Part shown: positions 12,226 to 35,783 of the stretch, piece by piece | How the letters are laid out: each line of letters starts with the position of its first letter | Position numbering within the stretch: the stretch's first letter is position 1 | From: Octopus vulgaris | Taxonomy: Eukaryota | Assembly: GCA_951406725.2 (NCBI GenBank) | Contig: OX597815.1 | Location: 100,502,001 to 100,566,000, forward strand | DNA length: 64,000 nucleotides | Reading direction: 5' to 3' | Program-made: the position numbers and the translations under genes | Notes under the pieces: generated by a model | Told to the model about the DNA's origin: nothing | The model's database searches: none | What the model saw: only the letters and a program-made list of their open reading frames with translations

Positions 12226-14131
12226 ACCGAACAAACTTTCAACAAACTTCCCAACTATGTCTCACTGCTTCACCAGTGAAGTAGTTTCTAAGCTGGTATG
12301 GTATCTTCAAGCCAGCTTCTCTTGGATTTTTACTTGAACCTCAAACAAATATATATTCATTTCTCTTTCACACTTTTCATGCAACATTTTTATTTTCAGT
12401 TTTCTGACGCAGTGTGTGTTGGAGTGTTTGTTTGTGCATGTTGTTTGTTATTTACACGTACACGTGCATATGTATATTAAAAATTTCAAACTCCACCCAC
12501 TAAATTATTAACATTTTGTTGATAGCAAAACACAGGTATATATATATGGCTCTTTTGTAGAATTAGAGTTTTAGAAATGTGCGTGTATATATATTTGTAT
12601 ATATGATTAAAGTTAACGGCAAATTTTTTTGATGTTTATATTATTTTTTACACGCATATACATATCTATACACACCACACAGACTAGTGTGTGTGTGTAT
12701 ATATTATATACACACATGCATACAGAGAGACATACATATACATACATACATACACACGTACACTAAGTCAGTTACGTAGCTATACAGCTAAATAATATAT
12801 AGGCTTAAATGAACATGTCTAATTGATGAAATATCCATGATATCTGATCGATTAAAAGCATGTCCTCGTGCCTTTTAAACTCTGAGTATCGAACTTATAA
12901 TTCATTCACTTTGTCTTTCAAATTTATGCTGCACATAAATTCACTGAGTACTCGTTTCTTTTGTTTCCAGATATGTATGAATGAGTATGTCACTCATCAC
13001 TTGCCATTCATGAAACTCAACCTCTGTGATAGTTTTGTAATTTCCTACCAATTAAATATATATACACACACACCAAAAAAAAAAAAGTACCCTGTACACT
13101 CTGTAAAGTGGTTGGTATTGGGAAGGGCATTCAGCTGTAGAAACTCATTACAGCCTTCTGGTCCATCAGTTCTTGTCGAACTGCCCAACCTTGCCAGTAT
13201 GTAAAAAAAGACGTCGAATGATGATAAAAATGTATATATATATATATATATATATTATTTTGGTCAAGTCAACTTCTTGCTACTCTGATTTTCACTTGTA
13301 GGCATGCAGGATCTTCAGTTGTTATGTATATGTATTTATGGTAAGAAGCTTGATTCCCAACTACATGGTTCCAGGTGCAGTCCCACTACGTGACACCCTG
13401 GGCAAATCTTTTCTACTATAGCCTTGGGCCAACCAAAGCCTTGTGTGTGGATTTGGTAGACGGGAACTGACAAAAGCCCATTGTGTGTATATATATATAT
13501 ACACACACACACATATGTGTGTGTATAGCTCATTGTATCTATGTTTGTTCTTCCCATCACTCCTTAACCGCTGTCGGTGTGTTACATCCCTATAACTTAG
13601 CAGTTTGGCAAAAGAGACCGATAGAAGAAGTATTAGGCTTAAAAAATAATCCTCGAGTCAATTTGTTCAACTAAAACCCTTCAAGGTGGTACTAAAGTCA
13701 AATGACTGAAACAAGTAAAAGAATATAGATATATATATATAGAGAGAGAGAGAGAGCGCGCACACATATGTGCTCTTCAGTACTGAGTTCTAATTTTTTT
13801 TTTTGTTAATTCCATCAAATCCTGTCTTATATATGTACATATATATATATATGATGTGTATGTGGAATGTAAGGAAATGATTTACAGATTTACAAAGGAC
13901 AAATAAACATGGAAAAACCCTTATCAGCCACAGAGATCAGACTCTGCATGTATAAAGTCCAAGACTACTCTTCTAGTTATAGTGAGATAGGAAATATCAC
14001 TGAGGTGATAGGCAAAAACTAAAAGTAAAACATAATGACATGCAAATGAGATAAAACTACAGGCAGAAACGATGCAGTGACATATGCTATATACATATAT
14101 AAATAAACAAATACATGTGTGTGTGTACATA

Positions 14132-14167
<36 letters not shown>

Positions 14168-14255
14168 CACAATAATAAAAGGGTAAAATTAATTATTAAT
14201 TAATAATTTTACCAAGTAGTGTTCAGTATGTAAAAAGACCATTTACAGTATATTT

Positions 14256-14444
14256 AAAACATTACGTTATATAATTAGGGTTCAGTAAAAAAATTTACTT
14301 TACCACACACTGAACTTTTAGAAATAGCAGCCAAAAAATTTATAGTAGAGGAAATAGCTAAATTTTTTGGCTGCTATTTCTAAAAGTTTGGTGTGTGGTA
14401 AAGTAATTTTTTTACTGAACCCTAATTATATAACGTAATGTTTT
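14256..14444. repeat. Fold-back palindrome (~87-bp arms, 16-nt spacer) between two (TA)n tracts
   Basis: 14256-14342 is the reverse complement of 14359-14444 with about 3 differences. Confidence 0.9.
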
Positions 14445-17400
14445 TTATATATATATATATATACACGTGCGGGTGGTACGTAAAAAGCACCCACTACACC
14501 CACAAAGTGGTTGGCGTTAGGAAGGGCATCCAGCCATAGAAACACTGCCAGATCTGACTAGGCCTGATGAAGCCTTCCGGCTTCACAGACCCCAGTTGAA
14601 CCGTCCAACCCATGCTAGCATGGAAAATGGACGCTAAACGATGATGATGATATACACATGTAGATTTTCAATGAGAAAAAAACAACTTCTTGATGGTAGA
14701 CTCTGTTGCAATCATTCAGGCCAGTTAGACAATACCTTCCATTGGTCTTAGAGGCCATGTAATGGGCCCTGGGCACTACTTTTCCTCCACAGTAAAAGAA
14801 CAAAAAGAAAATACAGGTTTGGTGAGCAACCAGGAGAAATAGAACTGAATACTAAGAGAACATATAAATCTTAATTTTATATATGTTATAGATGCAGGCA
14901 TGACTGTGGTAAGAAACTTGCTTCTCAACCACATGCTTCTGAGTTCAGTCCCACTATGGCACCTTGAGCAAGTGTCTTCTATTATAACCTCAGTGCTAAC
15001 CAAAGCCTTGCAAACTGATTTGGTAGAAAGAAACTGAAAGAAGCCTTTTATATATATGGCAAATCCTACTTTTTTCTGCCAAGGGCTTATATGCCCTAAT
15101 ATTAGACTATTAAACTTTGTCAATACACAGTGATCGCTTATAAACTTTAAAAAAAAAAAATTGTAAAATTCACACCGCTTAGCAAATAATTGCAGATATG
15201 TATATATATGTTTATGTTGCCATAACTTAGCAGTTCAGCAAAAGAGACCAACAGAATAAGTACCAGGATTAACAAAAATAATAAGTACTGGATCGATTCG
15301 TTCGACTAAATGGCTACAGTCTAATGACTGAAACAAGTAAAAGATAAAAGTATATCAGCATACACACTTACACATATCATAGACATATAAATGCATATGC
15401 TGGCTTGTTAATTTCAGAGAATCGTTAATTGCTTGAAATTATGTCCCCTTCTTCTTCAGAGTTGGTTGCAATTGCTACTATGTGATTGCTTACTTTCTCA
15501 AAAGGCAAAGATAATTTCAATAAATCAAGAATTCACCTTTTATGGTATTCAGTATACCCTTTCTCTTCTCACCTTGTTGTCAAGTTATTTCTCTTGGCGC
15601 ATTTTTGTTTTAATTATTTGAATTACTCTAATATATATATATGTAATGCATATAATTATTATTATTATCTGAGGTTCACTTTGCCTTTCATCTTTATTGT
15701 GTAAATGAAATGAAGCACGAATTATATTGGCTCAATGTAATCAACTGTTCTTCCCTCACAAATTTTTTTGGCCTGGTGTCTGTGTTACAATTATTAATAA
15801 TAATTCTGGGCACAGGACCTGAAATTTGTGGGATGGCTGGTGATCAAAATCATTGAATGTAGTACTTGATAATTTATCTTATCAACATCAAAAGAGGAAA
15901 GGCAGAGTTGACCTCAGCAGGATATGAATCAAAAATGTAAAGCGCCAGAACAAATACTGCAGTGCATTTTTTCAATGCTCTAATGATTCTGCCAGCTCAA
16001 TTATTATTTTTATATATTTAATTCAAATTAGAAGCAAAACGAGTGTGATGTTAACCCTTTTGTTACCATGCCTTCATTTCACTTAATTTTGAAAATAGTA
16101 AAGAATTTATTACAATAATTTTGCCATTATTAAAATGGTATTTTAAACATAAATTAATATAAAATTGTAATGGAAAGTTTTTAATTTAGATTACTTTAAG
16201 CAGAGGTGGTCTCAGACAGGTTGGCTTTAAGGTACTGAACAACTGACCTCATAATATCAGGTTTACTTCAGTTTTCTGTATTGTGACTCTGGGCAAACCA
16301 TCTGACAAAGCTTACCACAAGTTCCACCACCACCTACCATTTCATGGTTTAGTAGTCAGAAATACAACATTCTGCTGTAATACTAATTACTTGTTGTGTG
16401 AGAGTATGATGCCCCCTGGCAAGGATGGACTGGACTACTATATATAAATAGTAGCAATCTGAGTAAGTGAGGTTGATAGTTCAAAGTTTGAGTTCAAATT
16501 TTACAGTTCGAGTTAACATGTTGGATTGTTGTTTCTTAAAAGATAATTGTTAGTTCTATGTGGTTACTACTATTTGTTTCAATTATATTGTTATTACACT
16601 GTTGCAGTGTATTCGTTTATCCATAAGGATGTAACATTACTCTAACATATAAAACATCCCACTAATGATGAAATTGATATAAAACACCAAAAACAAATAA
16701 CAAAATCATTCAATTATTTGATGAATTATTCACATAATTTCTCTTGATATTTTTCACTTCATTATCCTTAAATTTTTCTATAGTAAACTCTTATTCTTGT
16801 AAAATAATGATCAGAATTGTATGCTTTATTTCCCTATTGATCAATCATTTTTCCCCCTCATAACAATGTTATCTTCAGCTTCACTTTTTCTTTCTCTCAC
16901 ACTTTTCATTATATTTTTTTACCCCTGTTTCCTATATAACTATTGTCTTCTTCCACAAATCTATTTACAAAATATTTGCCATAGTAATAATTACACTATA
17001 GTTATTTTTATAGTTCAAGCTACTGTGCCCCTCCACCAACACACCTAGCAACTCATAGATCTACCACAAAGTTAATCATCATCATTATTATCATTATCTA
17101 ACATTCGTTAATGATGATCATGATCATGATGATTTAGTTTGTAAGAGATTTATAAATAATTATATTGCCTTGTATCAGAAAGAGGAAGAATTAAATTGTT
17201 ATTGCTATTTTGGAATGTTGTTGTATAGACCAAGGTCAACATTGATCGAGCTTGACTATTTTCCTTGCATGTGATAACCTCCCTATTACCAGTGATAAAG
17301 TTGATCCAATACTCTGTGTAAATTGATTGGTCATAGGAAGGTCATCCAACAACAAAAACCATGCCAAAATGAAAACATTTGAACAATACATATAGACACT

Positions 17401-17479
17401 CAATCCACAGTGCAGTCTACCCATCTAGGAGAATAGTAACTGAATATGAACTGATATACAATCAAAGGGACTTTCTAGT

Positions 17480-18025
17480 TCTCGCATACTTTTCCTTCAT
17501 TGGACACTAAACTCTGCTTGCGATGACCTGTTGAGGCAAGTGAGATCGAAATCAAATTCAATGACTGGTATCCATGCTAGTGGAGCGCTAAGAGCACCAT
17601 CTGAGCATGATCATTGCCAGAGCAGCTAACTGGCTTCTGTGCTGGTGGCATGTAAAAAGTATCATTCAAGCTTGATCGTTACCAGCATCGCCTTACTGAC
17701 ACTTGTGCCGGTGGTATGTAAAAAAACATTCGAGCGAGGTCGTTGCCAGTGCCACTGGACTGGCTCCTGTGCAGGTGGCACATAAAAAACACCATTTGAG
17801 CGTGGCCATTGCCAGTACCGCCTGACTGGCCCTCATGCCGTTGGCACCTAAAAGCACCCACTACACTCTCGGAGTGGTTGATGTTAAGAAGGGCATCCAG
17901 CTGTAGAAACTCTGCCAGATCAGATTGGAGCCTGGTGCAGCCATCTGGTTCGCCGGTCCTCTGTCAAATCGTCCAACCCATGCTAGCATGGAAAGCGGAC
18001 GTTAAACGATGATGATGATGATGAT
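17480..18025 (+). mobile_element. Family B (GAT)n-tailed retroposon copy with internal tandem units
   Basis: Same tail and internal units as 7477-8170, in the opposite orientation. Confidence 0.8.
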
Positions 18026-18232
18026 ACTATAAAACACACTCATTCCACATTGTAAGTACAAGAGTAAGACCACACACACTCACATATATAATTATAAAAT
18101 TCATTTTCAGTGGGTTGGATTTTGCCTCAATACTAATTCAATGAGTTGACTGGTTGAATAAGCTGTCAGATAAAACTTTAATAAAACTCTAAATCACTGC
18201 GAAAATGAATTTTATTATAAACCAGCACTGTG

Positions 18233-18566
18233 CTAGTGCATGCATATACAGCTGCGTGCATGCGTGTGCACATACACACAAGTACTGTCCAAATCTCCGA
18301 CCAATCACATACAGCTAGCTGGCATTCAATTGGCGTATCAAGTTTTGGTCAATTTGATTGGGTTTGGGATAGAAATTCACAAAAAAGTCACTTCTATTGA
18401 TTTTTTAATGGCTTTGCGGGGTGACTGGGGAAATGTAATGGTGTGCACGACCACCCTTGGACCACCTTCTGAATGACCATAGAAAGTGTGAGCCCTCTAA
18501 CTGAAAAATTGTGGATTTGTATAAAGGACACACACACAGACATTTTGTTGTTTATATATAGAGAGA
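18233..18566 (-). mobile_element. Putative non-autonomous Helitron-like element
   Basis: Minus strand starts A|TCTCTCTATATATAAAC and ends in a GCATGCA..TGCATGC hairpin followed by CTAG; no TIRs. Confidence 0.4.
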
Positions 18567-19626
18567 TTTTACTACTTTTAGCACTGAGTCTACTCCTCAT
18601 CAGTAAACGTGTTTTTCTTGAAATTATTTTAAACTAATCATCATGGTTCCTGGTTCAGTCCCACCATGTGGCACCTTAAGCAAATATCTTCTGCTATAGC
18701 CCCAACCAACCAAAGCCTTGTGAGTGGATTTGTTAGACAGAAACTGAGAGAAGCCCATCTTGTGTGTGTGTTACTGTCTCTTTCCCTTGATATCACACAA
18801 TAGTCATAAACAAATGTTTCTGTCATACAAGCAGAGTCCTTCATTCCTGATCTTCTGTGAAAACATGTCCAGACACGGGGAAATATCACCTTACTTGGAA
18901 ACAAGTGAGGGTTGGGGATAGGATGAGCAACTGGCCATAGAAAATCTGCCTCAATAAAATTTCGTCTTGCCCATACAAGCATGGAAAGGTGGACATTAGA
19001 AGGATTCACTTACAACCCTTCTCCCCATAACCCCCACCACCTACTACAGGCCCCTCCAGTTCCTCTTACTATCACTTACTATCTCCAAATATCTCACCTC
19101 ACACTCTTATGGAACATCTCTTCTATCCCTTCTGTACTACTTATACTCCCCTACACACTGTTCCCAGTAGTTAGGTTGTCTCTCTCTCCCTCCCCCTCTC
19201 TCTAACTGTCTCTTTCTGTCACTCATCTTCCTCTCTTTCCTTGTCCTCTGTAGTAAGGCAACTATCTTTGTCCCTCAATAATACTCCACCTTCTCACCTG
19301 GTACACAGCCATTTCTCTGAGTTTCTTTTTCTCTCTCAGTAGATAAATCTTTGTTTTACAAGTTACTTAGCAACCCTGTGAGTACTGGTGCCAAGTGGGA
19401 AAATATCTGTGCTGGCACCACATAAAGAGCATTCAATATACTCAATAAAGTGGTTAGCATTAGGAAGAGCATTCAGCCATAAAAAACAGACAACTGGAGC
19501 CCAGTGAAGCTCTCTGGCTTGCCAGTTCCTGTTAAACCATCCAACTCATGCCAGCATGGAAAACGGACATTACATCATGATGATGTATCTCTCTCTCTCT
19601 TTATTTATATGTATATATATATACAC

Positions 19627-19657
<31 letters not shown>

Positions 19658-19720
19658 TATATTTATATATATATATATATATAGTGAATTGAAGAAATGG
19701 AGTTGAACGAAGATTGAACA

Positions 19721-19830
19721 GAATTCCTTTTATTGCATTCTACACATGTTTCAAAAGCCACAATTTTCCAAATTCTGATTAAATAAGGATACCATATTGT
19801 GGCTTTCTCGTCAGGAAAAAATAGGAATTC
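19721..19830 (-). ncRNA. Type I hammerhead ribozyme in the PLE 3' UTR (pseudo-LTR)
   Basis: GAAUUCCU..UUC-CUGACGA-GAAAGCCACAAU[loop]AUUGUGGCUUUU-GAAA-CAUGUG-UA|GAA..AGGAAUUC. Full catalytic core, 12-bp stem II, palindromic ACAUGU in stem III; predicted cleavage between 19741 and 19740. Confidence 0.85.
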
Positions 19831-20431
19831 CGTTGGCAGAACAAAACAGAACAGAGGCGCAGCAAAGCAATTTGAACGAGGAGGCTCTTTAAGAGCCCAT
19901 GGCTGAACTGTTTATCAATGTACGTTGAAATCGGATGGTGGGTGCGTTGAAGATATTTACAGGTCAGGCGGCGGTCAAATCCAGTAGGTGAGAGCAAGGG
20001 GTGTGGAGATGTTCTGTGTGACCAAAACTAAAATTCTGAATATTTTAAGAATACTGGGTGTATTTTTGGGGGGCGAGACAAAAACTACCTAGAAGCATGT
20101 ATGTGTGTACTGGCCTATGTGTGCGCGGCCGTATGTTGGTAAAAGGCGCTACATAATGGTCACTGCTGAAAAATTCGTCAGGCAGCAGAAAATATTTTTT
20201 GTGTTCGTGTGTTCGTCTAGGCCTGCTTGTCAAAAAATTAACGTCGTCAAAGAATCCTAAGGGTATATAAAATTCCAGCGTTTGCTTCCAAAACAAACCA
20301 CCATTCGCCTAATGGGAGTAATTTCCCCTTGCAAGGGTTATTCATATATTTCTTAAAAAGCTTTTTCAAAAATTATTTCCAAGGATTATTTTCATTTTAG
20401 TAGGGTAACAAGGTGCTAATTGTCTTAGGTA

Positions 20432-21311
20432 TCATTTATAAGCAAGATAAGTATAACGCCACCAATGGGGACATCGAAAAGCCGACTGTAAAAGTCCGTT
20501 TACCAACCGGTCTCTGGCGAACAATATGTGGAAAAGCTCAGAGACACAAAGATTGCACTTCCTTCTGCCCCTATCAAATGGGAGGGCCACCGACAAAATC
20601 GACCATTCCAGCCTGAACCCTGAGTTCGCGTTCTTCAAACGCCATATAAGCTTGCTAAGTCCCGTAGCTTGGTATTTATTCACGTCGCGAAAAGTTGCGA
20701 AATGGTTGGAAATTCGCAAGACCAATTTTGACGATGAGGTCCCGACATACGAGTAGACATCTGAGTCCGTGTAAACCTTACATTGGTAAATGGCATTTCT
20801 GATCTTGGAGTTACTCGACAAGAACCTTATTCTATTGGGATTAGCTTCTGAAATTAGAACTGCGTTACTGTTACTATATTGATTGCGAGAACTGCGGCTG
20901 CTTACTACTTTATATTCCTCAAAGTCACTATTAATTAACGGACTAATCCCTGAGTCTTCCCTATCACTGAGAGCGCTGTAATTGCTAGTATCCGTGGGCC
21001 TGCTATTGCCGGAAACGATGCTGGAGTTGCTATTAGGACTCTCTACATTAATGACCCGAGCTGCGCTCACCTCACTATTGCCATTACTAACGTTAATGAC
21101 ATCACCATTTCTTCTATCGCTACACCTAGTATTTAATCCCTGGTTGGTACTGAGATTATCAGTCACTGTACTGGCTCTCTTATCATTATTACTACTATTA
21201 TTATTCCTACTGAGCGTTAAACTAGGAGCGGACGGAGCTGCGCCTCCGGACAAAGGTGGTAGGGTCTTAATAAGCAGCCTATTATTATGGGAGGCGATTA
21301 TCTGGGAAAGG
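20432..21311 (-). CDS. PLE ORF 3' part: linker plus C-terminal GIY-YIG endonuclease (out of frame with the RT by 1 nt)
   Basis: NAIYQCKV..SYVGTS..LRISNHFATFR..TGLSKLIWRLK..LEWSIL..KCNLCVSELFHIL..LVN..FRCPH. The frame is open upstream through NLSQIIASHNNRLL. Confidence 0.85.
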
Positions 21312-23010
21312 TTTTTGTGTTGGAGAAAGCTATCCTAACTTTATGCGAATTAACCGTGGAGTAATATTTGGAATTTCTGGGGAAGTTACTGGCGATGGCT
21401 TGTCGAAACAGGAGGGGAAGGTTAGTTCTAATCTGCTTACCAAAGGGAATTACAAACCATATATGCTTATTCCTATTTATGTGATGGGTCGGGAAGCCAG
21501 CTCTAACATTAGGGTGGGTGATTATAGGATGAATAACGGGTTTTGGTTTAGTGTGAACTCCCCCGGACCGATAATTATCTTTGTTCCCTAAATTAAATCC
21601 GGAAGTACCTGCTCCAACACTCCCCGCGCTCCCGTCACTACTTAAATTGTTAATGTTATTATAGACGGCCCTATCCTGATGACCAAATGGTGGCATCGGA
21701 AGGGCTGGATCAATATATACTACCTTCTGCCTATAACCGGCTTTGGATAGTGCGGCGTTATAAAATTCCGCTTTCTGCATAAAAATGTCGGCACTAGCGG
21801 ACAAGTTAGACAATCTTAGAGAGATGTTTTTAACCAAATTGTCTGTTACGGTTTTGGCATGATTGGAGAAGACACTGACATACTTCAAATTAGTGGAAGG
21901 CTTATGGTAAGGGCAGTATGAATCGCTATGGAGGTTTAGTGTAACGTCTAGGAAATTAGCCTTGGTGAGTTCATTATCAAAAACTATATTCATGCCCATT
22001 CTATTAAAGAACCTAGCTAACCTATTCTTAGTTTTCTGTACGATTCTGTTTGTGGTGTTTTGCAGGTAAAACAGACAATCGTCCCGATACAGGCCACCCG
22101 CGATATCCGGGAATTGGTCGGACAATTCGTAGAGAATATAGATTCCGACCAAATCGGCTATCTGCGCACTATCCGAACTACCCATAGGCACATCGAATTC
22201 ATTGGGAGTATCTTTACGAATCCACAACTTATTTTCAAACCTTATAAATGATTTTCTGGCAACTAAAATAATATCAATTTCTTCTCTAGTGAGGCCTGCC
22301 TTGTTGTGAGCATGCCAAAGGGCCTTATTTAGTACACTAGGGTTAATCGAGGGGTAGAAGCTGGTGATATCAAACTGAATAAACCTAGTACGGTTCTTAT
22401 TTGGGATGGAAGAGAACCACTTCACTACCTGCGAGGAGTTAGCCCAGAGGCTAAGCTTCAGCTTGTTTTCTAAACTAGGGATATATTTATCTAAAATGTA
22501 CTTACTGATGGTCCCGATATCAGAACTAGCAGGGCATATGAGTCTTAACGCTGGGTTGGTGTAGAAATTCGGTTTATGGTCCTTCACTATAAATCTAGGT
22601 TGCTTAGGGCTAAGTGGCTGCGTTCTCATTTGAATTCCGTATTTAAACATTATTTCCTTAATCTCCAAGTTTACTTTCCTCAATGTACTCCAATTAGTTG
22701 TTCTATAATTCTTCTTGATCTCTTTTCCGAGTAAATCTAGGTACTGTTTAATGGGTAACTTGTATGTGTTCCTGGTCTTGTCGGACTGGACCAGGACTCC
22801 GTCCGATCTATTAATATCCTTGGTAATTTTATCTAGGTATCTGAGGTGATCATTTCTCCTGGGTGACTTCCTGAACTTAATCTTCCTTACGATGTCCCAC
22901 AAGTCATCCTCAAACTTCTTCAGTCTTGGGTTAGCTGGCGGTGTATTCATTGATTTAAAAAGCCCACAATATTCGGACGATGCTGCTGCCCGGTTCGATT
23001 TTAGATCTTC
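21298..23010 (-). CDS. PLE ORF 5' part: reverse transcriptase, N-terminally truncated
   Basis: DKTRNTY, KDHKPNF..LRLICP, FIQFDITSFYPSI, FDVPMGSSDSAQIADLVG, GLYRDDCL, NFLDVTLNL, YHKP..SNH. The GTG start at 23022 in the ORF track lies in the flanking inverted repeat, not in the element. Confidence 0.9.
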   Translation of the reverse strand, partial: EDLKSNRAAASSEYCGLFKSMNTPPANPRLKKFEDDLWDIVRKIKFRKSPRRNDHLRYLDKITKDINRSDGVLVQSDKTRNTYKLPIKQYLDLLGKEIKKNYRTTNWSTLRKVNLEIKEIMFKYGIQMRTQPLSPKQPRFIVKDHKPNFYTNPALRLICPASSDIGTISKYILDKYIPSLENKLKLSLWANSSQVVKWFSSIPNKNRTRFIQFDITSFYPSINPSVLNKALWHAHNKAGLTREEIDIILVARKSFIRFENKLWIRKDTPNEFDVPMGSSDSAQIADLVGIYILYELSDQFPDIAGGLYRDDCLFYLQNTTNRIVQKTKNRLARFFNRMGMNIVFDNELTKANFLDVTLNLHSDSYCPYHKPSTNLKYVSVFSNHAKTVTDNLVKNISLRLSNLSASADIFMQKAEFYNAALSKAGYRQKVVYIDPALPMPPFGHQDRAVYNNINNLSSDGSAGSVGAGTSGFNLGNKDNYRSGGVHTKPKPVIHPIITHPNVRAGFPTHHINRNKHIWFVIPFGKQIRTNLPLLFRQAIASNFPRNSKYYSTVNSHKVRIAFSNTKTFPR

Positions 23011-23064
23011 GTTCTCTAGCACATGATATCAGACCAGGTCACTTGCTATGCAACTACATCTCTG

Positions 23065-23100
<36 letters not shown>

Positions 23101-23155
23101 CAGAGATGTAGTTGCATAGCAAGTGACCTGGTCTGAGATCATGTGCTAGAACGAA
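23008..23155. repeat. Near-perfect palindrome centred on (TA)n at the PLE 5' junction
   Basis: Arms 23015-23067 and 23098-23150 (53 bp, 1 mismatch) flank a self-complementary TA tract. Confidence 0.92.
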
Positions 23156-23389
23156 AACAATTGCATTTAAATTTAAATGTTGAAGTGAATCTAACGGTTT
23201 TTGTGTGTTTCTTAAATGGCTTATAAACACCTTCCACGCTGCAATTGTTATATTTAGCATGGAGAACGGACGTTAAACGATGATGATGATGATGATGATG
23301 AACTTAGAAGATAACTTACATTAGTTTCAGCCATTATCAGCCCAGGCCATGATTAACTCAAAAGCACCACCTGGAAAAGTCTTTTAGTT

Positions 23390-24630
23390 AATTATTTCAG
23401 GACACTATGGACCACTCAAGCAGAGAGTTGTTGTTAGTTGAGACATATCCAGGTGTAGGTGGTTTATCCAGTATTCCCTGGAGGAATTTGTCCAGGTACC
23501 ATTTGAAAGTTGTGGTGTCTTTTTCGACTTTAATCTCTTTCGGGATAACATTGAAAAGTGCAGGACCATTTGCAGTGAAGAAATTGTGTCGCAATGTTCT
23601 TATGTGATGTGATCTCGACCTTTGTAGGGGACGCATTGCATGGGAGCCTAGTCTTGGGTGAATTGTAAACATAATACTGATATCATTTGGATAATAGTGG
23701 TGGAATATTTTCCACATGGTACAAATAATGTATCGCTCATGGCAGCGTTGCAGAGAATAGAGCTTCGGCTGTTTAGGTTAAGCCCAATAATCAAGTCCTA
23801 TCATGCCATTTATTTTTTTGTGATTGATCTTTGTGGCACTTTGATCCTCATTATGTCTTGTTTTTGTAGGGAGACCACAATGGGCAGCAGTATTCAAGGT
23901 GGGGCCTAGCAAATGTGGAGAAGAGAAAGATGATGGTTTCATGATCCCTAGATTGAAAAGTTCTGAGGATTCATGAGCACAATCTGTGGGCAACATCGAC
24001 TTTTTTGTTGATGTGCACACTCCAGCTAAGGTTACTGTCAACAGTTACATCTTAGTCTCTGATATTATCCGACGGTTCAAGTAGGTCTCCTGACGGTAGT
24101 GTACATGGTTGTTTGAGTGTGCTCTCATTTCCAAAGTGGATGAGCTCAAATTTTTCCTTGTTCTACTGCATATTGTTTTTTTGTGCCCACTGGGTTACTG
24201 CACATAGGTCCAATTAAAGCAGTGTTCAATCATATGCTCTCTTAACGACTTTCTGGAGCTTAAAGTAATCTGCATATATTTTAATGGTGCTATGTTCAAT
24301 GGAATCTGCAATGTCATTGATATAGACAATAAAAAGAAGTGGACTCAGCACAGTACCCAGCGGGACTCCGCTGATGACTTTTGCTGGACTTGCGTAGTTG
24401 CCATCAACCACAACATGCTGGGTCTTCTTTGTTAAGAAATGCCTAATCAATTGAAGTAGCTTTCCACCGACTCCAGCATTGGATAGTTTCCTTAACAGTA
24501 TATTGTGGTTGACTCTGTCAAAGGCCTTGCTGAAATTGAGGTGTATGACATCCACATTGGAGCCCTCACTTAGTGCATTTAAGATGTCATCAAAGTGATG
24601 GAGGAGCTGTGTTAGACAGTTCCTCCCACC
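23390..24630 (-). mobile_element. CR1-group LINE 3' fragment (decayed)
   Basis: RNCLTQLL..LNFSKAFDRVNH..SGVPLGTVLSPLLFIVYIND..IYADY..RPHLEYCCPLWSP..GPALFNVIPKEIK..FKWYLDKFL, with stops and frameshifts. Confidence 0.85.
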
Positions 24631-25444
24631 ACATAAGCTATATATGTATATACATACATACACACACACACTCACTATATATATACACATACACACACAC
24701 ACACAGCCACTTACAGAATTACATTTATTAATGGTCAGCATACATTAATGTAAATGATCACCATCTGTTTTAAATCTGAAATATTTTCTAGTATTGAAAA
24801 AAAAAAAAAAAAGCTCTGGACCATGAATGAGAATATTACAAGTAAATTACAATATTCAAAAGGTGGTGGACCTGCAGAAACCAGTAGTGTAAGGCAAATA
24901 TCTTGTGGTCTTTATGTTCAAGTCCTGTTGTGGCTGATATTACATTTCATCCTTCTGGGATCGATAAAGTATTAATCAAGTCAATCGAGAGAAACCCTTC
25001 TCCTACAATTTGTGGCTGTTTGTCTATGTTAGAAATCAATATTCTAAACTCTCAAACAAATCAATAAAATCACGTATAATCAAAGTGATGATACGTATGC
25101 AACGCTGGCCTATTTACTTTCACCATTGGGTCTATAGTAATTGAAAGGTTAATAATTTCACTAAATTTAATATTGTACCTGGCTAGAATCTCATTAAAAA
25201 ATTTATAGCTTTCATAAAAGCTTCATCAGCAGAAAGAGTTCCGTGCCTTGATTTTGTGATTATAATTGTAAATAGTTATATGTTTATCCTTTTTCAAGGC
25301 ATTCTATGTCTGCTGTATATATAACCATGTGTGAGTGCAAAAGAGAGACTTTATAGTTATAGATATTGTGAAATAATCTATTTAAAGTTTTAGTAAAGAT
25401 ACAATTTTTACAGCTTACTTGCACAATGAACAATTTCAAATCAG

Positions 25445-25517: not shown

Positions 25518-25676
25518 CTCTGTCATTGGACTGTAGCTATGCTGAGGCATCACCTTGAAGAGTTTTAGCTGAACAAATCACCACCCCAGTACATTTTTTA
25601 TTTAAGCCATATATCTATTCTATTGGCATATATACAGAAAGACAGATAAATTATTCAAAGGGCACAATGTCTTTAA

Positions 25677-25730
25677 GTGCTACTAATAGTTTCATATGTT
25701 TAGAAATACTGAAACATATTCTTCAGACAC
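25677..25730 (-). ncRNA. Minimal type I hammerhead ribozyme in a short TA-flanked unit (~25630-25780)
   Basis: GUGU-CUGAAGA-AUAUGUUU[caguauuucu]AAACAUAU-GAAA-CUAUUAG-UA|GCAC. Stem I 4 bp, stem II 8 bp perfect, intact core; predicted cleavage between 25681 and 25680. Confidence 0.8.
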
Positions 25731-25873
25731 AAACCATATATCATGCTTTTTTTAAAATCTCTTTCACGGTATAGTACATTATATATATATATTGATAGAA
25801 ATGGCAAGACAACAAAAGATTGAAAGAGACTTCGATATTTTGTAAATAGAGGAATTTATCTGTAAATATAATA

Positions 25874-25945
25874 TGTGACAATTATTCGGTAGCCATGATA
25901 AAACTCCAAGCTTTTCGGAGTTTTATCATGGTTACCGAATAATTG

Positions 25946-25950
<5 letters not shown>
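25874..25950. repeat. Fold-back palindrome (34-bp arms, 9-nt loop) abutting (CA)n(TA)n
   Basis: 25874-25907 versus 25917-25950, one mismatch (G-T). Confidence 0.9.
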
Positions 25951-27715: not shown

Positions 27716-27762
<47 letters not shown>

Positions 27763-27826: not shown

Positions 27827-27874
<48 letters not shown>

Positions 27875-28035: not shown

Positions 28036-28289
28036 TTTTTCTATGATTCATACATATTTCACCTAAAAGTGCATGTACATATACATATGTTCATAACAGT
28101 CCTCTTATCCCCAGACAATAAGACAGTCCTTTTCTTTAAATTACATGTCATTTTCGGAGAGCTGGTCTTAATTGCCATTTGGTAATTATGATACATTCTC
28201 TTGAAGCACAAATAATTTTGATAAATCAAGAATTTGTTATATGCTATTTGATATACCTGTACTTATCTATGTATGTATTACATACACAC

Positions 28290-29425
28290 ACTACCATCAT
28301 GATTATTTAACATCTGTTTTCCATGCTTGCTTTGCTTAGATAGCTTGATAGGAGTTGGCCAGGCCAGGAGCCACACTGCATTCCATAATCTATTTTGGGT
28401 TGGCTTCTACAGCTGGATGCCCTTCCTTAAACCAACCCCTTTACAGAGTGTACTGGGTACTTTTTTATGTGAAACCATCACCAGTGCTTTTTATACAACA
28501 CCAGCACCAGTACGTTTTTATGTGGTACCAGTACCAGTGCTTTTTATGTTGCTCTATCATCAGTGCTTTTTACATGGCATCAGCACCAATGCATTTTACG
28601 AATCACCTTGGTTTTAGGATATCAATTCTGTTGTGGTGGGTAGGTCTTCTTGAGCACAGCAATATGCCATATATCTTGATCCTTTGTCATCTCCTTTGTA
28701 AGGCTCAGCATTTTAAGATCAGCCTTCAATATTTTGTCCCATGTCTTCCTAAGTCTCCCTCTTCCACAACTTCTCTCCACTTTAAATGACTGGCATTGCT
28801 TTATGCAGCTGTCCTCATCCATCCACATTACATGACCAAACCAGCACAGCCTTCTTGTACATGGCATCTAATTCCTTTTATGCCTAACTTTTCTCTCAAT
28901 ACAATAGTGCTCTGTTGCACATGAACACTGATATTGCACATCCAGTAGAGCATACCAGCTTTGTTCCTCTTCAGTCTTTGCATGTCCTCTGCATTCAAGA
29001 CCCACATATCACAACCAAAGAGCATTGCAGTTTGTACACATGCATCATGCAATCTCCCTTTCACTCACAGAGAAAGAAAGAGACCTTTGGTTGCCAACAG
29101 AGGTAAAAGCTCTCTGAAAGTTCTCCATCCTATTCTTTTTCTTGTTAATTACACTATACAACCTGCTCCACTGCTAATTAGGTCAGTTAGCAGAAATTAT
29201 CTACTACTTCCAGAGAACCTCTGGGACATTTGAAGAAATCAGTTTCTCATGTGTCTGTAGTCTTTATGGCTCCTGTACATCTTCCACATACGAACACTAC
29301 ATTCTCTATTAATCCTCCTACTATTTTATTGCACCTTGTATCCATGGTTTGCACTGGGTGCATTAAATAGAATTTCTACCTGCACTTTCCCTACATATTA
29401 CGCAGGGCCATTTACCTCTGGCACC
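28290..29425 (-). mobile_element. RTE-clade LINE 3' fragment running into a family B tail
   Basis: KGRLHDACVQTAMLFGCDMW, REKLGIKGIRC, RRLCWFGHVMWMDEDSCIK, GRGRLRKTWD, then internal repeats and an ATG/GAT tail. Confidence 0.85.
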
Positions 29426-29469
29426 CTATATATAGTGTATGTGTGTTTGTGTTTGTGTGTGATGATGAT

Positions 29470-29810
29470 GATGAGTGTGAACACAGTACAGGCCATGTAC
29501 AAAAGATGCTGTTAGTAAGGTAAGAGTTAGCCATGAGTACGGTGACAAATTTAGTGTCCTGGTAGGTATTCACCAAGGATCAATCCTCAGCCCCCTCCTA
29601 TTCATCATCATCCTCTAGGCCTTAACAGTGGAAATGAAGACTGGAGCCCCATGGGAACTACTATATGCTGATGATCTTGTCCTCATAGCAGAATCTGTAA
29701 CAGAACTAGATAAGAAATTCAGGTGTAAAAATAAATCTGGAATCAAAAGGTCTTAAAGTTAACTTAGCAAAGACCAAGGTCCTAGTAAGCAAGAAATCAG
29801 ATAGAACCCT
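29470..29810 (+). mobile_element. RTE RT fragment, inverted relative to the neighbouring fragment
   Basis: VGIHQGSILSPLLFIIIL..PWELLYADDLVLIAES..GLKVNLAKTKVL. Confidence 0.8.
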
Positions 29811-29971
29811 AAGGAGGTGTATACATATATATATACACACACACATGTATATATGTGCATGCATGTGTACCCTTGTCTTACATCACATAATGGTTGAAAA
29901 TGAGCATCACTGTTTACCTCATCACCCCAAACCCATGTAAGTATAGAAAACTGAACATTAAATGATGATGA

Positions 29972-30018
<47 letters not shown>

Positions 30019-30049
30019 GTGTGTCAAGATAGATAGATAGATAGATAGA

Positions 30050-30377
30050 CTTCTTTATTGGCCATGCTGGGCTAAACACAGAAGGGACAAAATACAAAGT
30101 AGAGCTTTTCTTTTTGGGAAGAAGAGAAGGAAAAAAATAAAGGGTCGAATTCCAATCAAAAGGGATCGTGGAAAGAAAAAACAAAGTGGGAGCAATCAAT
30201 AGGGATTGTGTATCACAGAAATGTCAATGTAAAAAGGGAAAACAGAAAAGCCTATGGAAAAGACCACGGAAACCTTGGGCAATAGTGTCATGCAAAGAGA
30301 AAACACATTACAGTAAGTGACTCTCTTTTTTTCCTTTCGGTTTTTTTTTTTGATTCATAGGATTATACTCAAGCTGA
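30050..30377 (-). mobile_element. 3' end of a non-LTR retrotransposon (possibly Tx1/L1-like) embedded in a (GATA)n tract
   Basis: About 300 nt of pyrimidine-rich UTR-like sequence ending CCAATAAAGAAA, with (GATA)n on both sides. Its last ~42 nt resemble the tail of SINE family C. The clade assignment is a guess. Confidence 0.4.
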
Positions 30378-30540
30378 TCGATAGATAGATAGGTAGGTAG
30401 GTAGGTAGGTAGGTAAGGGATAATAGTATCCATTCTTACAATCGGTATCATTTACCTAAGCTATCCCTAGGTATGGGTATCCAAGCACACTGTGCTCATA
30501 GGCTACAGGTAACAACAAGATAAACAAAAGTTTATCAGGA

Positions 30541-30740
30541 ATCAAATTTAAATAAGCAAAAATAGGAGAAAACTTTTGATCAACAAACAAACAAATTGAC
30601 CCACATCAGTTGATTATTTTTTAATACAAAATATAACACATTTCATATGTCATGCTTTATAGTAAAAAATAATCAACTGATGTGGGTCAATTTGATTGTT
30701 AATCAAAAGTTTTCTCCATTTTCTGATTATTTAAATTGAT
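30541..30740. repeat. Fold-back inverted repeat (~80-bp arms, ~39-nt spacer) abutting (TA)n
   Basis: Perfect 32-bp core CAAATTGACCCACATCAGTTGATTATTTTTTA and its reverse complement; outer arms are diverged. Confidence 0.88.
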
Positions 30741-30754
30741 ATATATATATGTCT

Positions 30755-31102
30755 TTTTTATCTTGTTTCAGTCATTTGACTGCAGTCATGCTGGAGCACT
30801 GTTCTGAAGGGCTTTAGTTGAACAAATCGACCCCAGGACTGATTTTTTTTAAAGCCTTGTACTTATTCTATCAGTCTCTTTGGCAAACAGCTAAGATATG
30901 AGGACATAAACACACCAACACCAGTTGGGAAGTGGTGGGGAACACAAACACATATACACGATGTGCTTCTTCCAGTTTCTGTCTACCAAATCCATTCACA
31001 AGGCTTTAGTCAGCCCAAGGCTATAGTAGAAGACACTTGCCCAAGGTTCCACACAATGATACTGAACCCGGAGCCATGTGGTTTTGGAAGCAAGTTTCTT
31101 AC
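30755..31102 (-). mobile_element. SINE family A copy
   Basis: Colinear similarity to 6524-6902. Confidence 0.8.
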
Positions 31103-31439
31103 ATATTATATATATATATATTTGCATGACGTAAAAAGATGATGTTATGTTAAAAAAACATTACAAATGAATCAATATTTATTTTTTTATTTTATTTATT
31201 TGTAATGTTTTTTTTTTCCCCCCAAAAAAAGCATCATTTTTCTACAACATGCAAAATGAATCAGTAATTACATCCATTTATTCTTGATTTTCTCCTTGTT
31301 TCTCCTTCAATATTAAAAATTTCAATAATCCTAAACATATACCATTGACTTTGCCATTATATGATACGTATTGAACCAGTGAAATACCCTGGATTATATA
31401 ATCCCTAATGAGGACTTAACTTCCTCAAATTAAGTATAT

Positions 31440-32140
31440 ATATATATATATTATATCCATTTAAATGTATAAAGCTATTTGCCGCAGCTGAGAATAAGAA
31501 CAAACAGTTACAACTACATAAATAAAAGTATAAAGAACTTGGTGCAGGGTGAATCATTCTACATATAATAGTAATAAAGGTTCAAGTAGACGGAAATTTA
31601 TGTGTGTGTGTGTGTGTGGTGGGGGGTTTAGTTTTCAAGAGAATGGAGTTATTGTGCCAGAAATGTGAGATGAGCTGTTTTTAGACTGAGGATATATATT
31701 GTAGGTATTTCGCAGAAATACAAAGGAAGAAGATTTAGAATTTGGTTTACAGAATTATGCTCTATGTTCCAAGTGATGGAGTTAGGTGTGTTTGAGTCTC
31801 TAAGCTTACTTTGAATGGGTGGAGGCAACATAAGGTACCGAGAACTCTTTATCCTTGTAGGGTATTAGGAAATCTCATAACTGCTGATACCATGATGACT
31901 AGCTACACAAATGAATGATTTGGTGGTGGTGGTGGTGGGGGAATTTCTGAATAAGTTTAAAGTTTTGAAGTCATTCAACATGAGACCTTTATTGCATGGA
32001 TCTGAACAACATCGTTGATAACGCAGAACTATAACTTAAAGTGATATATATCTGTAGAATAACCCACCAATTTGTTTGGTTATCTCTACAATTAATAGTA
32101 TACTTGTAGTTGTAGCTGTTTGTTCATATATTTGCAAACA
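31440..32140 (-). mobile_element. Old decayed PLE 3' remnant (GIY-YIG region plus 3' UTR) ending at (TA)n
   Basis: KLRDSNTPNSITWNI followed, after a frameshift, by FLCISAKYL. This parallels WRLKNANSGFRLEWSI..CNLCVSELF of the young PLE. Confidence 0.4.
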
Positions 32141-33299
32141 TATTCATACATTTATAGATAGAGGTGTAGAGCACTGAAAGTGGATAAAACTTGAGGAAGA
32201 GACAAGCCAGTGAAGACATGGATCAACATGAAGAGGACTGAGATTAGCATGCTCAGTTTCATTAAGGAATATCACAAAAGACTGCAATGGCTGGTGATAC
32301 GCAATACCAGAGAAAACCCGACTACCTGTGCAAGCTTGGCAGAACATTAAAATGGTACAAGTGAAGAAGGTTAATCAGCAAAAGATTCAGTTCTTGTTGC
32401 CATGTGGAGGTTTGTGTACTTCAGTGGCTAAGAACTATGCCAGCAGTGTGTAAACTCCTAGAAAGGGCCTCTCATGTTGAAAAAGTTAAAGGATGGCAAC
32501 CAGACTAATATGAACCATCTTATCCTAGAGGTAAAAATAGGTTTGCATAATGCCACAGCCCCACCTGTAAAAAAAAAAGCAGTTACAGAAGCATTGGTGA
32601 CAATTGAAAACTATCAAGAACAATGGAGACAAGTTGTCAATGGATTATGCACCATAGGAAGTGAAGGACTTACAAAAAGAAGGGGGGGGGCTAAGGAATA
32701 TGTTTACACCAAGAATGCCAGTTACGTCTCCATTTTCTCCCCACCCAACATTCTTTGAAACCCTCTCATCTCTCTTTTTTACTTATTATATTCCCCATGT
32801 AACTAAGGATGACACTGGACCTGTCCAACCTACATTCTGCCACCTCTGTAATGAGAGTTACCAATGGATCAGCTTTTATATTCAATATCTTTAACAACCA
32901 ACCTTATCATTGTACCTATCTCTCTCTCATCAAGACACCTATGTATGATAAATTACCACATATCTTTTCATATCCAATACTTCTTTTCTGTGTTACCAAA
33001 CATCACTTCCTTTTCTCCAGTCCATTTACTGTTGCCATCCATCACTTTTATCACCCTCAGCTTTATTTCTATATATCATTCAATCTATCTTTCACAAGCA
33101 AATATGGATCTGCAATTTCTTTCTTCTATTACTCCCTCCTCTACTACCCTCATAACCAAACCATTAATCTGTTAATTGTTAATTAACATTTTCGTTAACG
33201 ATTTAACTTTTAAGTTAACTCTGACAATCATTATCGGACCAATTAATTTCTGTAACATTTAACTTCTGTTAACTCAAGTTCGCTTGAGTTAACTTCCAT

Positions 33300-34800
33300 T
33301 GAATCAAGTCACTGTGATGATCTTTAGCTCAAGGACTTGAAATCCAAGGGCCTCATCTACTATCCTTCCCCCACTACTAATTTGGTTCCCTAGGTAGCAG
33401 AAATTATCCACTGCCTCTAAAGAGCCTCCAGGGTATTTGAGAAAATCGATTTCCTGAGTATCTGTAGTTATGACTACTGTGTATCAGCCACATACAAACA
33501 CTACTTTCTCTTATAATCTTCCTATTTTTCCACTATACCTCTTGTGTGTATATACATGTGGAGATTGCTAGCATCTAAATCTGACTAATAGAAATTGCTG
33601 GCATGCAAATCTGTCCAATAGAATCGAATGGAAAGTTGCAGAACTCTCTAGAATGTTCTAATAGCTTACTGTTATATAAGCAGAGCAGGTAGAGGGGCAT
33701 TTCTCCCTTTGTCCTTTCTTGTTATACATTGAGACAAATAATATGCCTGACATGACCATACCAATGCAGTCATCTCTCTTGCACACCACATCTGATGCCT
33801 CTTATGCCCAACTTTTCTCTTAAGATGCTTACACTGTCGTACATGCACATCCGATGAAGCATACTAGCTTTCTTTTTTTCAAGCCTTCGCATGTCCTCAG
33901 TGGTCACACCCAGTTTCACTGCCATGTAGCATGGCTGTTCGCTCACAGGTATCATACAGTCTGCCATACCAGAAATAGAGCATCAGTAGTGCTTCTCCCT
34001 GGCATGAAACCAAACTGTATCTCATCCAGATTTTTTAAGCATCTGATATCCTTCATGGCTTTATCTACCATGCTACTGTCTCTTCAGATTGCTTGCCCCT
34101 CTGTTGGATCAACTTTAGGCAAACTCCTTCTCCCAGGCTTGGAAGTGTCACTAACTGCAAGTGAACCATTCATGCAAACACTTCTCTACCACAACATCAC
34201 AATTTTCCCTGGAACAGTCTTGCAAGACAAAGCACTTCATGTCTCTGGTCCTCACATTGTAAGACATTGGCAAATTTCTCCCTTTCCGTTTCGCATCTGG
34301 CTAAGTATACCTGCTTCCAAGCCTGATTCTTTGCACCAGCTACAAATTTGGTCCACAGCACTCAGCAAGTTGTCCCATAAGGACTTCCACTGATCCTCTA
34401 TGCTACAAGTCTGTAACTTCATCTTCTCGTCTTAAGCTTCATTTAGGATGTCTCTAAATCTCTGACTAATGAAATGATCTAAAGCTTCCATGCCCTTCTT
34501 TTCCAAACTCACTTGCTTCTTGGAACCTTACGAGCCAGAAGCCTGAAGTCCCCAATGAGTAACCTATGTTGTGGGGTACATTCTTCTCCAGGAAAAGCCT
34601 TTGCATTTATGAGCAGCCATGAATCCTGCTTTCTGGTAAGAATGTAGTCAATCTGGCTAGCATGGTCACCAGATTTATAGGTTATCAAGTGGCTGGCCAG
34701 CTTTCTGAAGTTAATATTGCAGATCATTAGGTCATTTGTGTCACAGAACTCCAGCAGCCTTGTACCCTCATTTCAGGAACTAATTCCATGTCCCCATGGA
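33300..34800 (-). mobile_element. Rearranged RTE-clade LINE fragments (APE and RT C-terminal parts)
   Basis: ICNINFRKLASHLITYKSGDHASQIDYIL..FPGEECTPQHRLLIGDF (APE end), DEIQFGFMPGRSTTDA, REKLGIRGIRCGVQER. Confidence 0.8.
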
Positions 34801-35783
34801 AGTAAATATAGTCCTACATACACTATGTCTATAGAGAACAGAATTTGAATGTTCACAGTTGGAAAGTAACTGATCAAAGAGTTGATCTAGGGATAAACAA
34901 CACAGAAGGGCATATAGCTAATGTAGTGCTACAGACTATATATTGCATTCTCTCCCCTTATCCCTAGCTCTCCTGTGTGATCCTTCTGTCTGGCATTCGC
35001 CATAATAGATCGCCAGCCACGACACATTCTTTATTTTCTCTCCTTGTTTCTTTCTGTGGAAGAGCGTAGGCTCAAAACGTTAAAGACTTTTTCATTTTCC
35101 GAGCATTATACTAATACATCTGTTTGTTGTCTACACCACCTGTCTTCGTCTTGTTTTTTTTGTGAATTCTCCCTATATCTAAATAAACACTGGGATGGTC
35201 ACATTCAACATGTCTCTGACATAAGTTTACAGGATTGGGACTGACCTGAAACTAAATACAATAAAGTAAGAAATAAATAATGTTAGGAGAGATGGAGTGG
35301 AGATTGCTCAAAGCTGGAACATCTTTGATCACGTTTGCTTGACTAAAAAGGACATGGATCTATAAACAGTGCTTGAAATAAATAGAGGAACAATATGAAG
35401 ATAAAACCAAATTTAAACAAAAATCATTCTAAAAAAGAAATTTGGAACTGTTTATTTTTATTATTTATTATTTACAAGCCTTTATTAAATATCTTAAAAG
35501 AAAATGTTTTATGATATATAAAATTAAGTTGGGAAGAGAGTGAATGTAACAATTCGCTTGGATGGCATTGACCAAGATACGTGGTTTTAAAAGGTAGATG
35601 CAGCAAGGAAATTAAAACGACAGCACCTAATTACATCATAGCCTTGATTGTTTCCTTTCTTTTCTTTGTTTGCAAGTCAATTGGCAGGTATTTGGCAATA
35701 GAGAGGAATCAGTGTTGTACTGGAGTTGTGGTATGGGAAAAAGAAAGGCTAAGAGGATAAAATATGTGTAATAAGGTGATTAA

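What the first reader, a model, noticed from the sequence alone, without database searches (positions are those of the whole stretch)
13830..35180. (TA)n microsatellites act as recurrent landing sites for hammerhead-bearing PLE ends and fold-back palindromes
Seen in sequence: many TA tracts between 13.8 and 31.5 kb are abutted by a short non-SINE insert. These include a young PLE with a hammerhead (19684), an unrelated intact hammerhead unit (25630-25780), an old PLE end (31440) and five fold-back palindromes of mutually unrelated sequence (14256, 23008, 25874, 30541, 31121). Established: PLE pseudo-LTRs carry minimal hammerheads, some PLE families prefer microsatellites, and PLE insertions often include a partial inverted copy of the 3' end. 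Inference: several PLE families, or non-autonomous retrozyme-like derivatives, target (TA)n and leave short hairpins genome-wide. That would be an unannotated source of self-cleaving RNA and dsRNA in a lineage known for heavy A-to-I editing.
Basis: partly seen in the sequence, partly recalled or inferred. Interest (0 to 1): 0.75.

Follow-up and report, generated by a model that had tools for sequence, protein, structure and literature searches.

The report
Head-to-head Penelope ends in TA repeats
The hairpins beside TA repeats are real and common in this genome; most are back-to-back end pieces of several families of a known kind of ribozyme-carrying jumping gene (Penelope-like), and one is a mirror copy of the neighbouring DNA likely made while such an element was inserting.

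Summary
Real and mostly known. The window (2.8-Gb octopus-like genome) holds a young Hydra-clade Penelope-like element (PLE), two type I hammerheads and five fold-backs. Four fold-backs (14168, 25793, 30416, 31122) and the hammerhead unit at 25630 are stubs of multi-copy families: a tailed 3' end and a tail-less 3' end joined head to head between TA repeats. Two of these families link to a PLE endonuclease, one tentatively, two only by hammerhead and anatomy. They are neither MITEs nor tandem retrozymes, and none of the five hairpins holds a hammerhead core. In 800 kb of other DNA, 38 of 70 inverted repeats touch (TA)n, against 3% expected. Hammerheads, (TA)n targeting, inverted copies and one-sided tails are published for Hydra PLEs, including an Octopus family (PMC8557442). 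This scan found the same pattern before, here and in other genomes. Two extras: the 23008 palindrome is a local mirror copy of the target flank, fused to the PLE's 5' break, as described for L1; and this strictly TA-targeting family lacks the CxCX5C linker that was associated with TA targeting. The 'old PLE end' at 31440 is the tail of the 31121 hairpin. Cleavage, dsRNA and editing are untested.

The parts
14151..14167 (.). (TA)n target, left side of fold-back 1
14168..14358 (-). Fold-back 1, tailed arm (3' end at left, about 95-nt tail); its family has a GUU hammerhead about 115 nt further upstream that this copy lacks
14359..14445 (+). Fold-back 1, tail-less arm ending in (TA)9
19664..19683 (.). 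(TA)n target at the 3' end of PLE-A
19684..23016 (-). PLE-A: young Hydra-clade Penelope-like element with a tail-less 3' end, 5'-truncated by about 40 codons; RT frame 21301-23016, GIY-YIG frame 20435-21334, 1-nt frameshift near 21311 absent from 7 of 7 other copies
19726..19830 (-). Type I hammerhead of PLE-A (long stem II, palindromic stem III, predicted cut between 19742 and 19741)
23010..23066 (+). Local inverted copy of the flank 23099-23155, fused to the PLE-A 5' break at an 8-nt microhomology
23067..23098 (.). (TA)16 at the centre of the 23008 palindrome
23099..23250 (-). Older two-armed stub of a high-copy family (67-nt tailed arm plus inverted tail-less arm); no hammerhead or ORF found for this family
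25630..25779 (-). 3' stub of a second Hydra-type family with an intact type I hammerhead core (CUGA at 25726, predicted cut 25681/25680) and a short degenerate inverted tail piece next to the TA tract
25793..25946 (.). Fold-back 3: tailed arm (minus) and tail-less arm (plus) of a Hydra family whose long copies have a GUU hammerhead, CxCX5C linker, endonuclease and RT
30416..30738 (.). Fold-back 4: tailed arm (minus, next to a TAGG/TAGA tract) and tail-less arm ending in (TA)6; the fold lies at the family's predicted hammerhead cut site
31122..31434 (.). Fold-back 5: short inverted arm, then a plus-strand tailed arm ending at (TA)8 31435-31451; this tail is the likely 'old PLE end'; the family has a hammerhead

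Best explanation
The TA-flanked hairpins are short, 5'-truncated 3' ends of several repeat families joined head to head, most of them hammerhead-bearing and likely all Penelope-like (Hydra clade), and they were likely written by reverse transcription primed from both cut ends of a (TA)n target. Shown: multi-copy families; outer ends in (TA)n; variable fold points; one arm starting at the far 3' site (tail) and the other at a fixed inner site; endonuclease or RT upstream in long copies of three families (PLE-A, 25630, 25874). Inferred: the GIY-YIG enzyme cuts both strands, each end primes cDNA at one of the two start sites, both cDNAs stop early and are joined at their 5' ends; when both are short the product is a hairpin. 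The 23008 palindrome is likely the variant in which the second end folded back on its own self-complementary TA repeat, copied 57 nt of flank, and was then joined to the PLE cDNA.
For: PLE-A, copies chosen by the tail alone: 30 of 30 tail ends at TA (one is the query copy); 24 of 30 have an inverted arm and all 24 start at positions 155-167, i.e. without the tail (one search counts 25, one doubtful). In three sets chosen by an internal pattern, 41 of 48 two-armed insertions are tail plus tail-less, 6 lack both tails, 1 has both (p 6e-7 against 0.5). Endonuclease ends 195-231 nt upstream of the 25630 hammerhead block in 5 independent insertions among 30 loci. RT plus endonuclease lie upstream of the 25874 family in L344, endonuclease pieces in L345, L346, L339, L340. 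Hammerheads were found in the families of 14256, 30541 and 31121. In vitro a PLE protein cuts and extends both strands and starts at two adjacent RNA sites that define the tail (PMC11167929). For 23008: 1 mismatch in 52 nt between arms, a private base shared by both arms and absent from 29 of 29 family copies, and an 8-nt microhomology at the PLE break.
Against: No ORF link for the 14256 and 30541 families (30 and 26 loci, shared upstream sequence ends at about 445 nt). Only 1 of 30 loci links the 31121 family to an endonuclease, without a second copy to confirm. The 23099 family shows no hammerhead or ORF and weaker TA preference (16 of 36 outer ends). 31 of 38 TA-touching inverted repeats in the sample were not assigned to a family studied here, and several are SINE pairs. 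Six other TA-centred flank mirrors were seen with TA, not a PLE 5' end, beyond the mirror copy, so such mirrors may form without a PLE. PMC11167929 studied a Poseidon element, found no difference in start site between strands, and did not show two-armed products.
Confidence: 0.82

Rival explanations
1. Some of the hairpin families (14256, 30541, 23099) are non-autonomous elements, retrozyme-like or SINE-like, moved in trans by Hydra PLE proteins.
For: No coding sequence reached in their longest fetched copies. One direct tandem pair 563 nt apart in the 14256 family (L381/L382). Earlier notes of this scan report PLE-mobilised retrozymes in this genome (unchecked).
Against: Copies are 5'-truncated at many points and no tandem arrays were seen in 30 and 26 loci apart from that pair; PLE partial tandems give the same picture. 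Long non-coding 3' regions also occur in proven coding families (about 830 nt in L344; 620 nt in PLE-A).
Confidence: 0.25
2. The inverted arm arises by snap-back of a single cDNA or by later DNA repair, not by priming from both ends.
For: Arms of one insertion are often nearly identical and share variants. PLE-A 5' ends cluster at structured RNA regions: 13 of 52 within 15 nt of the hammerhead cut site, 11 of 52 at a hairpin at 378-413.
Against: The tail-less arm is often the longer one and holds sequence absent from the tailed arm (e.g. L181, L184, L196, L202), which copying of the first cDNA cannot supply. Its outer end sits at a fixed RNA position.
Confidence: 0.1
3. The palindromes are MITEs of TA-targeting Tc1/mariner transposons.
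For: High copy number, short, TA on both sides.
Against: Ends are asymmetric by a fixed tail, the centre differs from copy to copy, many copies are single-armed, and long copies run into hammerheads and PLE endonucleases.
Confidence: 0.03
4. The 23008 mirror copy formed by breakage and fold-back repair of the (TA)n tract, independently of the PLE, which inserted later with a deletion.
For: Six TA-centred mirrors without a PLE 5' junction in the fetched DNA, three of them among 1470 TA tracts of the 800-kb sample.
Against: Here the mirror joins the PLE break directly at an 8-nt microhomology with no TA between. Arm divergence (1 of 52) fits the PLE's distance from its nearest copies (about 2%).
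Confidence: 0.3

Closest known systems
Hydra-clade Penelope-like elements, incl. Hydra-1_Obim of Octopus bimaculoides and Penelope-13_HM (Craig et al. 2021, PMC8557442; abstract, passages, section 11, supplement part 2 read)
   Same: C-terminal GIY-YIG without CCHH, DKT motif, CxxC and CxH around the catalytic E/N, canonical type I hammerhead near the 3' end (often GUU or GUA), (TA)n insertion, inverted 5'-truncated copy, tail at one end.
   Different: Tails here are 60-170 nt against 30-40 nt reported. PLE-A is about 3.6 kb with a long N/S-rich linker, has RWL for RWK and lacks CxCX5C. Several hammerheads have stem II insertions of 55-110 nt. I saw no count of the tail/tail-less rule in the passages read.
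Poseidon PAc in vitro mechanism (Frangieh et al. 2024, PMC11167929; parts 1-2 of 4 read)
   Same: Both strands cut and extended at AT-rich DNA; two RT start sites define the tail; hammerhead cleavage not needed for insertion.
   Different: Other clade; two-armed products were not reconstituted; start sites did not differ between strands.
L1 insertions with inverted duplication of the target flank (bioRxiv 10.1101/2024.12.14.628481; passages read, supplements not seen)
   Same: Self-annealing of the second target end at TA/AT microhomology primes a mirror copy of the flank, which is then joined to the insertion.
   Different: Described for human L1 in cells and tumours; here a germline-fixed PLE case in a (TA)16 tract.
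Animal non-LTR retrozymes (bioRxiv 10.64898/2026.07.22.740005; part 1 of 5 read)
   Same: Type I hammerheads related to PLE pseudo-LTRs.
   Different: Defined there as tandem units each with a hammerhead; the window's items are single truncated ends, and two families are coding.

Membership tests
EN+ Penelope-like element (PLE-A) | Single ORF with RT and C-terminal GIY-YIG | tested here: met
   RT and endonuclease frames; the window's frameshift is absent from 7 of 7 copies; 103 homologues. Pfam gave no family for either frame, so the assignment rests on motifs and homologues.
EN+ Penelope-like element (PLE-A) | Pseudo-LTR, inverted 5'-truncated copy, one-sided tail | tested here: met
   Partial tandem in L039; 24 of 30 with an inverted tail-less arm.
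Hydra clade | DKT motif, no CCHH, CxxC/CxH around E and N | tested here: met
   Read from the translations. Among 44 homologues of >=650 aa: DK[T/S] 44, CxxCxxE 42, terminal CxH 39.
Hydra clade | RWK motif | tested here: inconclusive
   PLE-A has RWL in L039; RW[K/R] in 36 of 44 homologues.
Hydra clade | CxCX5C linker before the endonuclease | tested here: not met
   Absent in PLE-A (11 loci read incl. the window, 2 of them truncated within the linker) and in two related copies. Present in the 25874 family, three other local copies and 31 of 44 homologues. PLE-A is therefore a linker-less Hydra-like variant.
Hydra clade | Canonical hammerhead near the 3' end and (TA)n insertion | tested here: met
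Hydra clade | RT phylogeny with reference Hydra sequences | not tested
Naiad/Chlamys | N-terminal endonuclease, no canonical hammerhead | tested here: not met
   The endonuclease is C-terminal and a hammerhead is present.
MITE / TIR transposon | Fixed symmetric terminal inverted repeats with a constant interior | tested here: not met
   Asymmetric ends and variable centres in all families.
Non-LTR retrozyme | Non-coding tandem units each with a hammerhead | tested here: not met
   Not met for 25630 and 25874 (coding links). For 14256 and 30541 no arrays were seen but no ORF either, so these two stay open.
Active hammerhead ribozyme | Self-cleavage | not testable with these tools
   Core and stems are intact by pattern; free-energy folds do not recover the whole active fold. 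Metazoan PLE hammerheads cleave poorly and as dimers (PMC4209133, passages).

The most novel reading that the evidence does not exclude
Hydra-type PLEs open both strands of (TA)n and each free end takes one of three routes: priming at the tail start, priming at the inner start, or folding back on its own TA repeat and mirroring the flank. This one process would be the main source of on the order of 100,000 short inverted repeats in the genome, hence of ADAR substrates, and TA targeting would not need the cysteine linker, since the young, strictly TA-targeting PLE-A family has lost it.
Probability: 0.3. Interest if true: 0.55.

Novelty: new member of a known kind. Interest (0 to 1): 0.3.

Why it matters
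At the level of kind it is published. The added value is quantitative and mechanistic. About half of the short inverted repeats sampled are anchored at (TA)n, so PLE stubs may be a large share of potential dsRNA in a heavily editing animal, and repeat annotators may misfile them as MITEs or miRNA-like hairpins (Rfam gave many sub-threshold miRNA hits). The tail/tail-less rule and the flank mirror give concrete predictions for the open question of how PLE inverted insertions form. The linker-less family offers a direct test of the proposed link between the cysteine linker and (TA)n targeting.

Tried and rejected
1) Fold point equals hammerhead cut site: fits fold-back 4 and several of its relatives (query biased to that fold) but is not general. 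Only 1 of 52 PLE-A 5' ends lies within 2 nt of the site, and the 14256 family's hammerhead is about 115 nt from the fold; my first guess of a cut site there was wrong. 2) Naiad assignment: dropped after reading PMC8557442. 3) Fixed A-to-G editing between arms: 61 G.T against 57 A.C pairs in 42 hairpins, none individually skewed. 4) The endonuclease in L083 first looked linked to the 25630 family but belongs to a PLE-A relative across a TA tract. 5) Search 40 used a query that was itself a fold-back and did not reach upstream. 6) One search had a faulty de-duplication and an empty reference; one search replaces it, with five overlapping loci dropped (L335, L349, L370, L382, L390). 7) Sequencing runs: no RNA holder listed. 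DNA contigs neither confirmed the 23016 junction nor showed an empty allele. Presumed-RNA contigs hold short pieces of the 14256 family, two runs with a strand-switch joint, but did not cover the unique flank 13738-13904, so they say nothing on this locus. 8) Three of six other flank mirrors are followed by a PLE-like tail, but 9 of 21 TA tracts in the window are too, so this is no evidence of coupling. 9) A by-eye endonuclease-like phrase near 31750 was not scored by the profile. 10) Literature searches listed no paper on flank mirrors at PLE junctions or on linker-less Hydra elements; 'twin priming' did not occur in the PLE papers listed. The library lacks most subscription papers, and I saw only part 2 of 59 of the Craig supplement plus a term search.
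Full report
Setting. The window lies in a 2.8-Gb genome. The closest named protein hits to its retroelement are from Octopus sinensis (79%) and Argonauta, so I read it as an octopus; that is an inference.

Observation. A pattern search found exactly two type I hammerheads in 64 kb, at 19814 and 25726 on the minus strand; none of 60 Markov shuffles reached two strict hits. Rfam found no hammerhead and only sub-threshold miRNA hits on the hairpins. The five palindromes exist and are unrelated to each other. 9 of 21 TA tracts of at least five units between 13.8 and 35.2 kb abut one of the ends described below. To test enrichment I took 20 blocks of 40 kb at fixed positions on 18 contigs. Of 70 inverted repeats (arms >=25 nt, gap <=400 nt), 38 have (TA)4+ within 12 nt of an outer end, against 3.1% of random placements. 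Scaled up this is about 130,000 in the genome, a rough figure that includes some SINE pairs. 33 of the 38 recur elsewhere in the fetched DNA; only 7 match families studied here.

The young element. PLE-A runs from about 23016 to 19684 on the minus strand, with an RT frame followed by a GIY-YIG frame. The break between the frames is a 1-nt deletion absent from 7 of 7 other copies, and the copy lacks about 40 N-terminal codons present in L039. Eight long copies are 96-98% identical to it; the first look gave 1250-1432 candidates. It has the features listed for the Hydra clade in PMC8557442 (section 11): DKT, no CCHH, CxxC and CxH at the C terminus, a canonical hammerhead and (TA)n targets. That paper's supplement already lists Hydra-1_Obim from Octopus bimaculoides with (TA)n preference and a hammerhead, and Penelope-13_HM with an inverted copy. 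One feature fails: the CxCX5C linker, which the authors associate with TA targeting, is absent from PLE-A and two relatives, though present in 31 of 44 long homologues and in other local families.

How it inserts. I searched with the PLE-A tail only, so that 5' ends were not selected. All 30 loci returned, of 40 scored, have the tail end at a TA tract; one is the query copy. 24 carry an inverted second arm, and all 24 begin at positions 155-167, so they lack the tail. Most 5' ends lie 150-520 nt from the tail end, so a proven coding PLE makes hairpins of the size seen in the window. In several loci the tail-less arm is the longer, which one cDNA folding back on itself cannot produce.

The other families. 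Each palindrome family shows the same build: TA, tailed arm, variable fold, tail-less arm, TA. In sets chosen by an internal pattern, where both arms are free, 41 of 48 two-armed insertions pair a tailed with a tail-less arm (13 of 15, 12 of 13, 16 of 20). The 25874 family has 737 exact matches to a hammerhead pattern, and its long copies run into an endonuclease with CxCX5C and an RT. The 25630 hammerhead family has an endonuclease ending 195-231 nt upstream in five independent insertions, so this unit is a PLE stub and not a retrozyme. The 14256, 30541 and 31121 families have hammerheads in longer copies. No ORF was reached for the first two, and one locus of 30 suggests it for the third. 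The 23099 family has the same build (18 of 18 two-armed copies, tail-selected) but no hammerhead or ORF was found, and only 16 of 36 outer ends are at TA. None of the five window hairpins contains a hammerhead core. The 'old PLE end' at 31440 is best read as the tail of the 31121 insertion.

The 23008 palindrome is different. TA lies at its centre. The left arm differs from the right by 1 of 52 nt, shares a base found in none of 29 family copies, and is fused to the PLE-A break at an 8-nt microhomology with a 2-nt slip. It is therefore a local mirror copy of the flank. The likely route is that the second target end folded on its TA repeat, copied the flank and joined the cDNA. The same outcome, primed by TA/AT, is described for human L1 (10.1101/2024.12.14.628481, passages). 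Against a PLE role: six other TA-centred mirrors in the fetched DNA end in TA rather than in a PLE 5' end, and contigs from other runs showed neither this junction nor an empty allele.

Mechanism. Shown: anatomy, copy numbers, TA adjacency, the two fixed 3' starts. From the literature: a Poseidon PLE protein cuts and extends both strands at AT-rich DNA, starts at two RNA sites that define the tail, and does not need hammerhead cleavage (PMC11167929). Inferred: both ends of the cut (TA)n prime cDNA, one at each start site, and the truncated products are joined. 5' ends cluster at structured regions (13 of 52 near the hammerhead cut site, 11 of 52 at a second hairpin) but only 1 of 52 at the cut itself.

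RNA claims. Untested. Arm mismatches show no editing bias (61 against 57 in 42 hairpins). Presumed-RNA contigs hold family pieces but do not tie them to this locus. Metazoan PLE hammerheads cleave weakly and as dimers (PMC4209133, passages). A recent repeat annotation of O. vulgaris reports 31 recently active Penelope-like families and does not mention hammerheads in its main text (PMC13282606, passages).

Earlier notes of this scan reached the same reading, including the short-end/long-end rule, in this genome and others. They are unchecked AI notes and not independent support. Word searches of those notes for a flank snap-back and for loss of the linker returned nothing.

Verdict. A real, genome-wide pattern, and new members of a published kind. 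Interest 0.3, carried by the flank mirror, the linker-less TA-targeting family and the size of the hairpin population.

Noticed in passing
window 3682-5067 (+): Long uninterrupted WD40-repeat ORF, 461 aa from stop to stop.
   Followed up: no
window 11644-12225 (+): Uninterrupted Arf-family GTPase ORF; presumed-RNA contigs from three runs cover about 11430-12620.
   Followed up: partly
window 58473-58563: 45-nt-arm hairpin, 87% complementary, not next to TA and without a homologue in the fetched DNA.
   Followed up: partly
window 24226-24744 (-) and 43911-44957 (+): RT fragments of other, LINE-type retroelements.
   Followed up: no
L023 145-1236: Three tandem units about 546 nt apart, each with a type I hammerhead: a retrozyme-like array unrelated to the window's items.
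   Followed up: no
L004 1302-1389, L029 697-880, L383 2324-2493, and blocks at C1:130.01 Mb, C14:30.01 Mb, C15:30.01 Mb: Inverted copies (23-231 nt) of unique flank placed between two TA tracts, a possible (TA)n fold-back repair product.
   Followed up: partly
families of window 30541 and 31121 (L349, L428): Hammerheads with 90-110 nt inserted in stem II, beyond common descriptors.
   Followed up: partly
L037, L159, L163, L405: Four copies of the 23099 family share the same upstream boundary next to simple repeats; either a fixed 5' end or an internal microsatellite.
   Followed up: partly
proteins P0002, P0006, P0093: Cephalopod relatives of this PLE protein are named 'myb-like protein I' and 'GATA zinc finger domain-containing protein 14-like' by NCBI, likely mis-annotations.
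   Followed up: no
window 7700-7934, 17595-17853, 28462-28598: Tandem arrays of 66-68 nt and 26 nt units inside a common SINE-like repeat.
   Followed up: no
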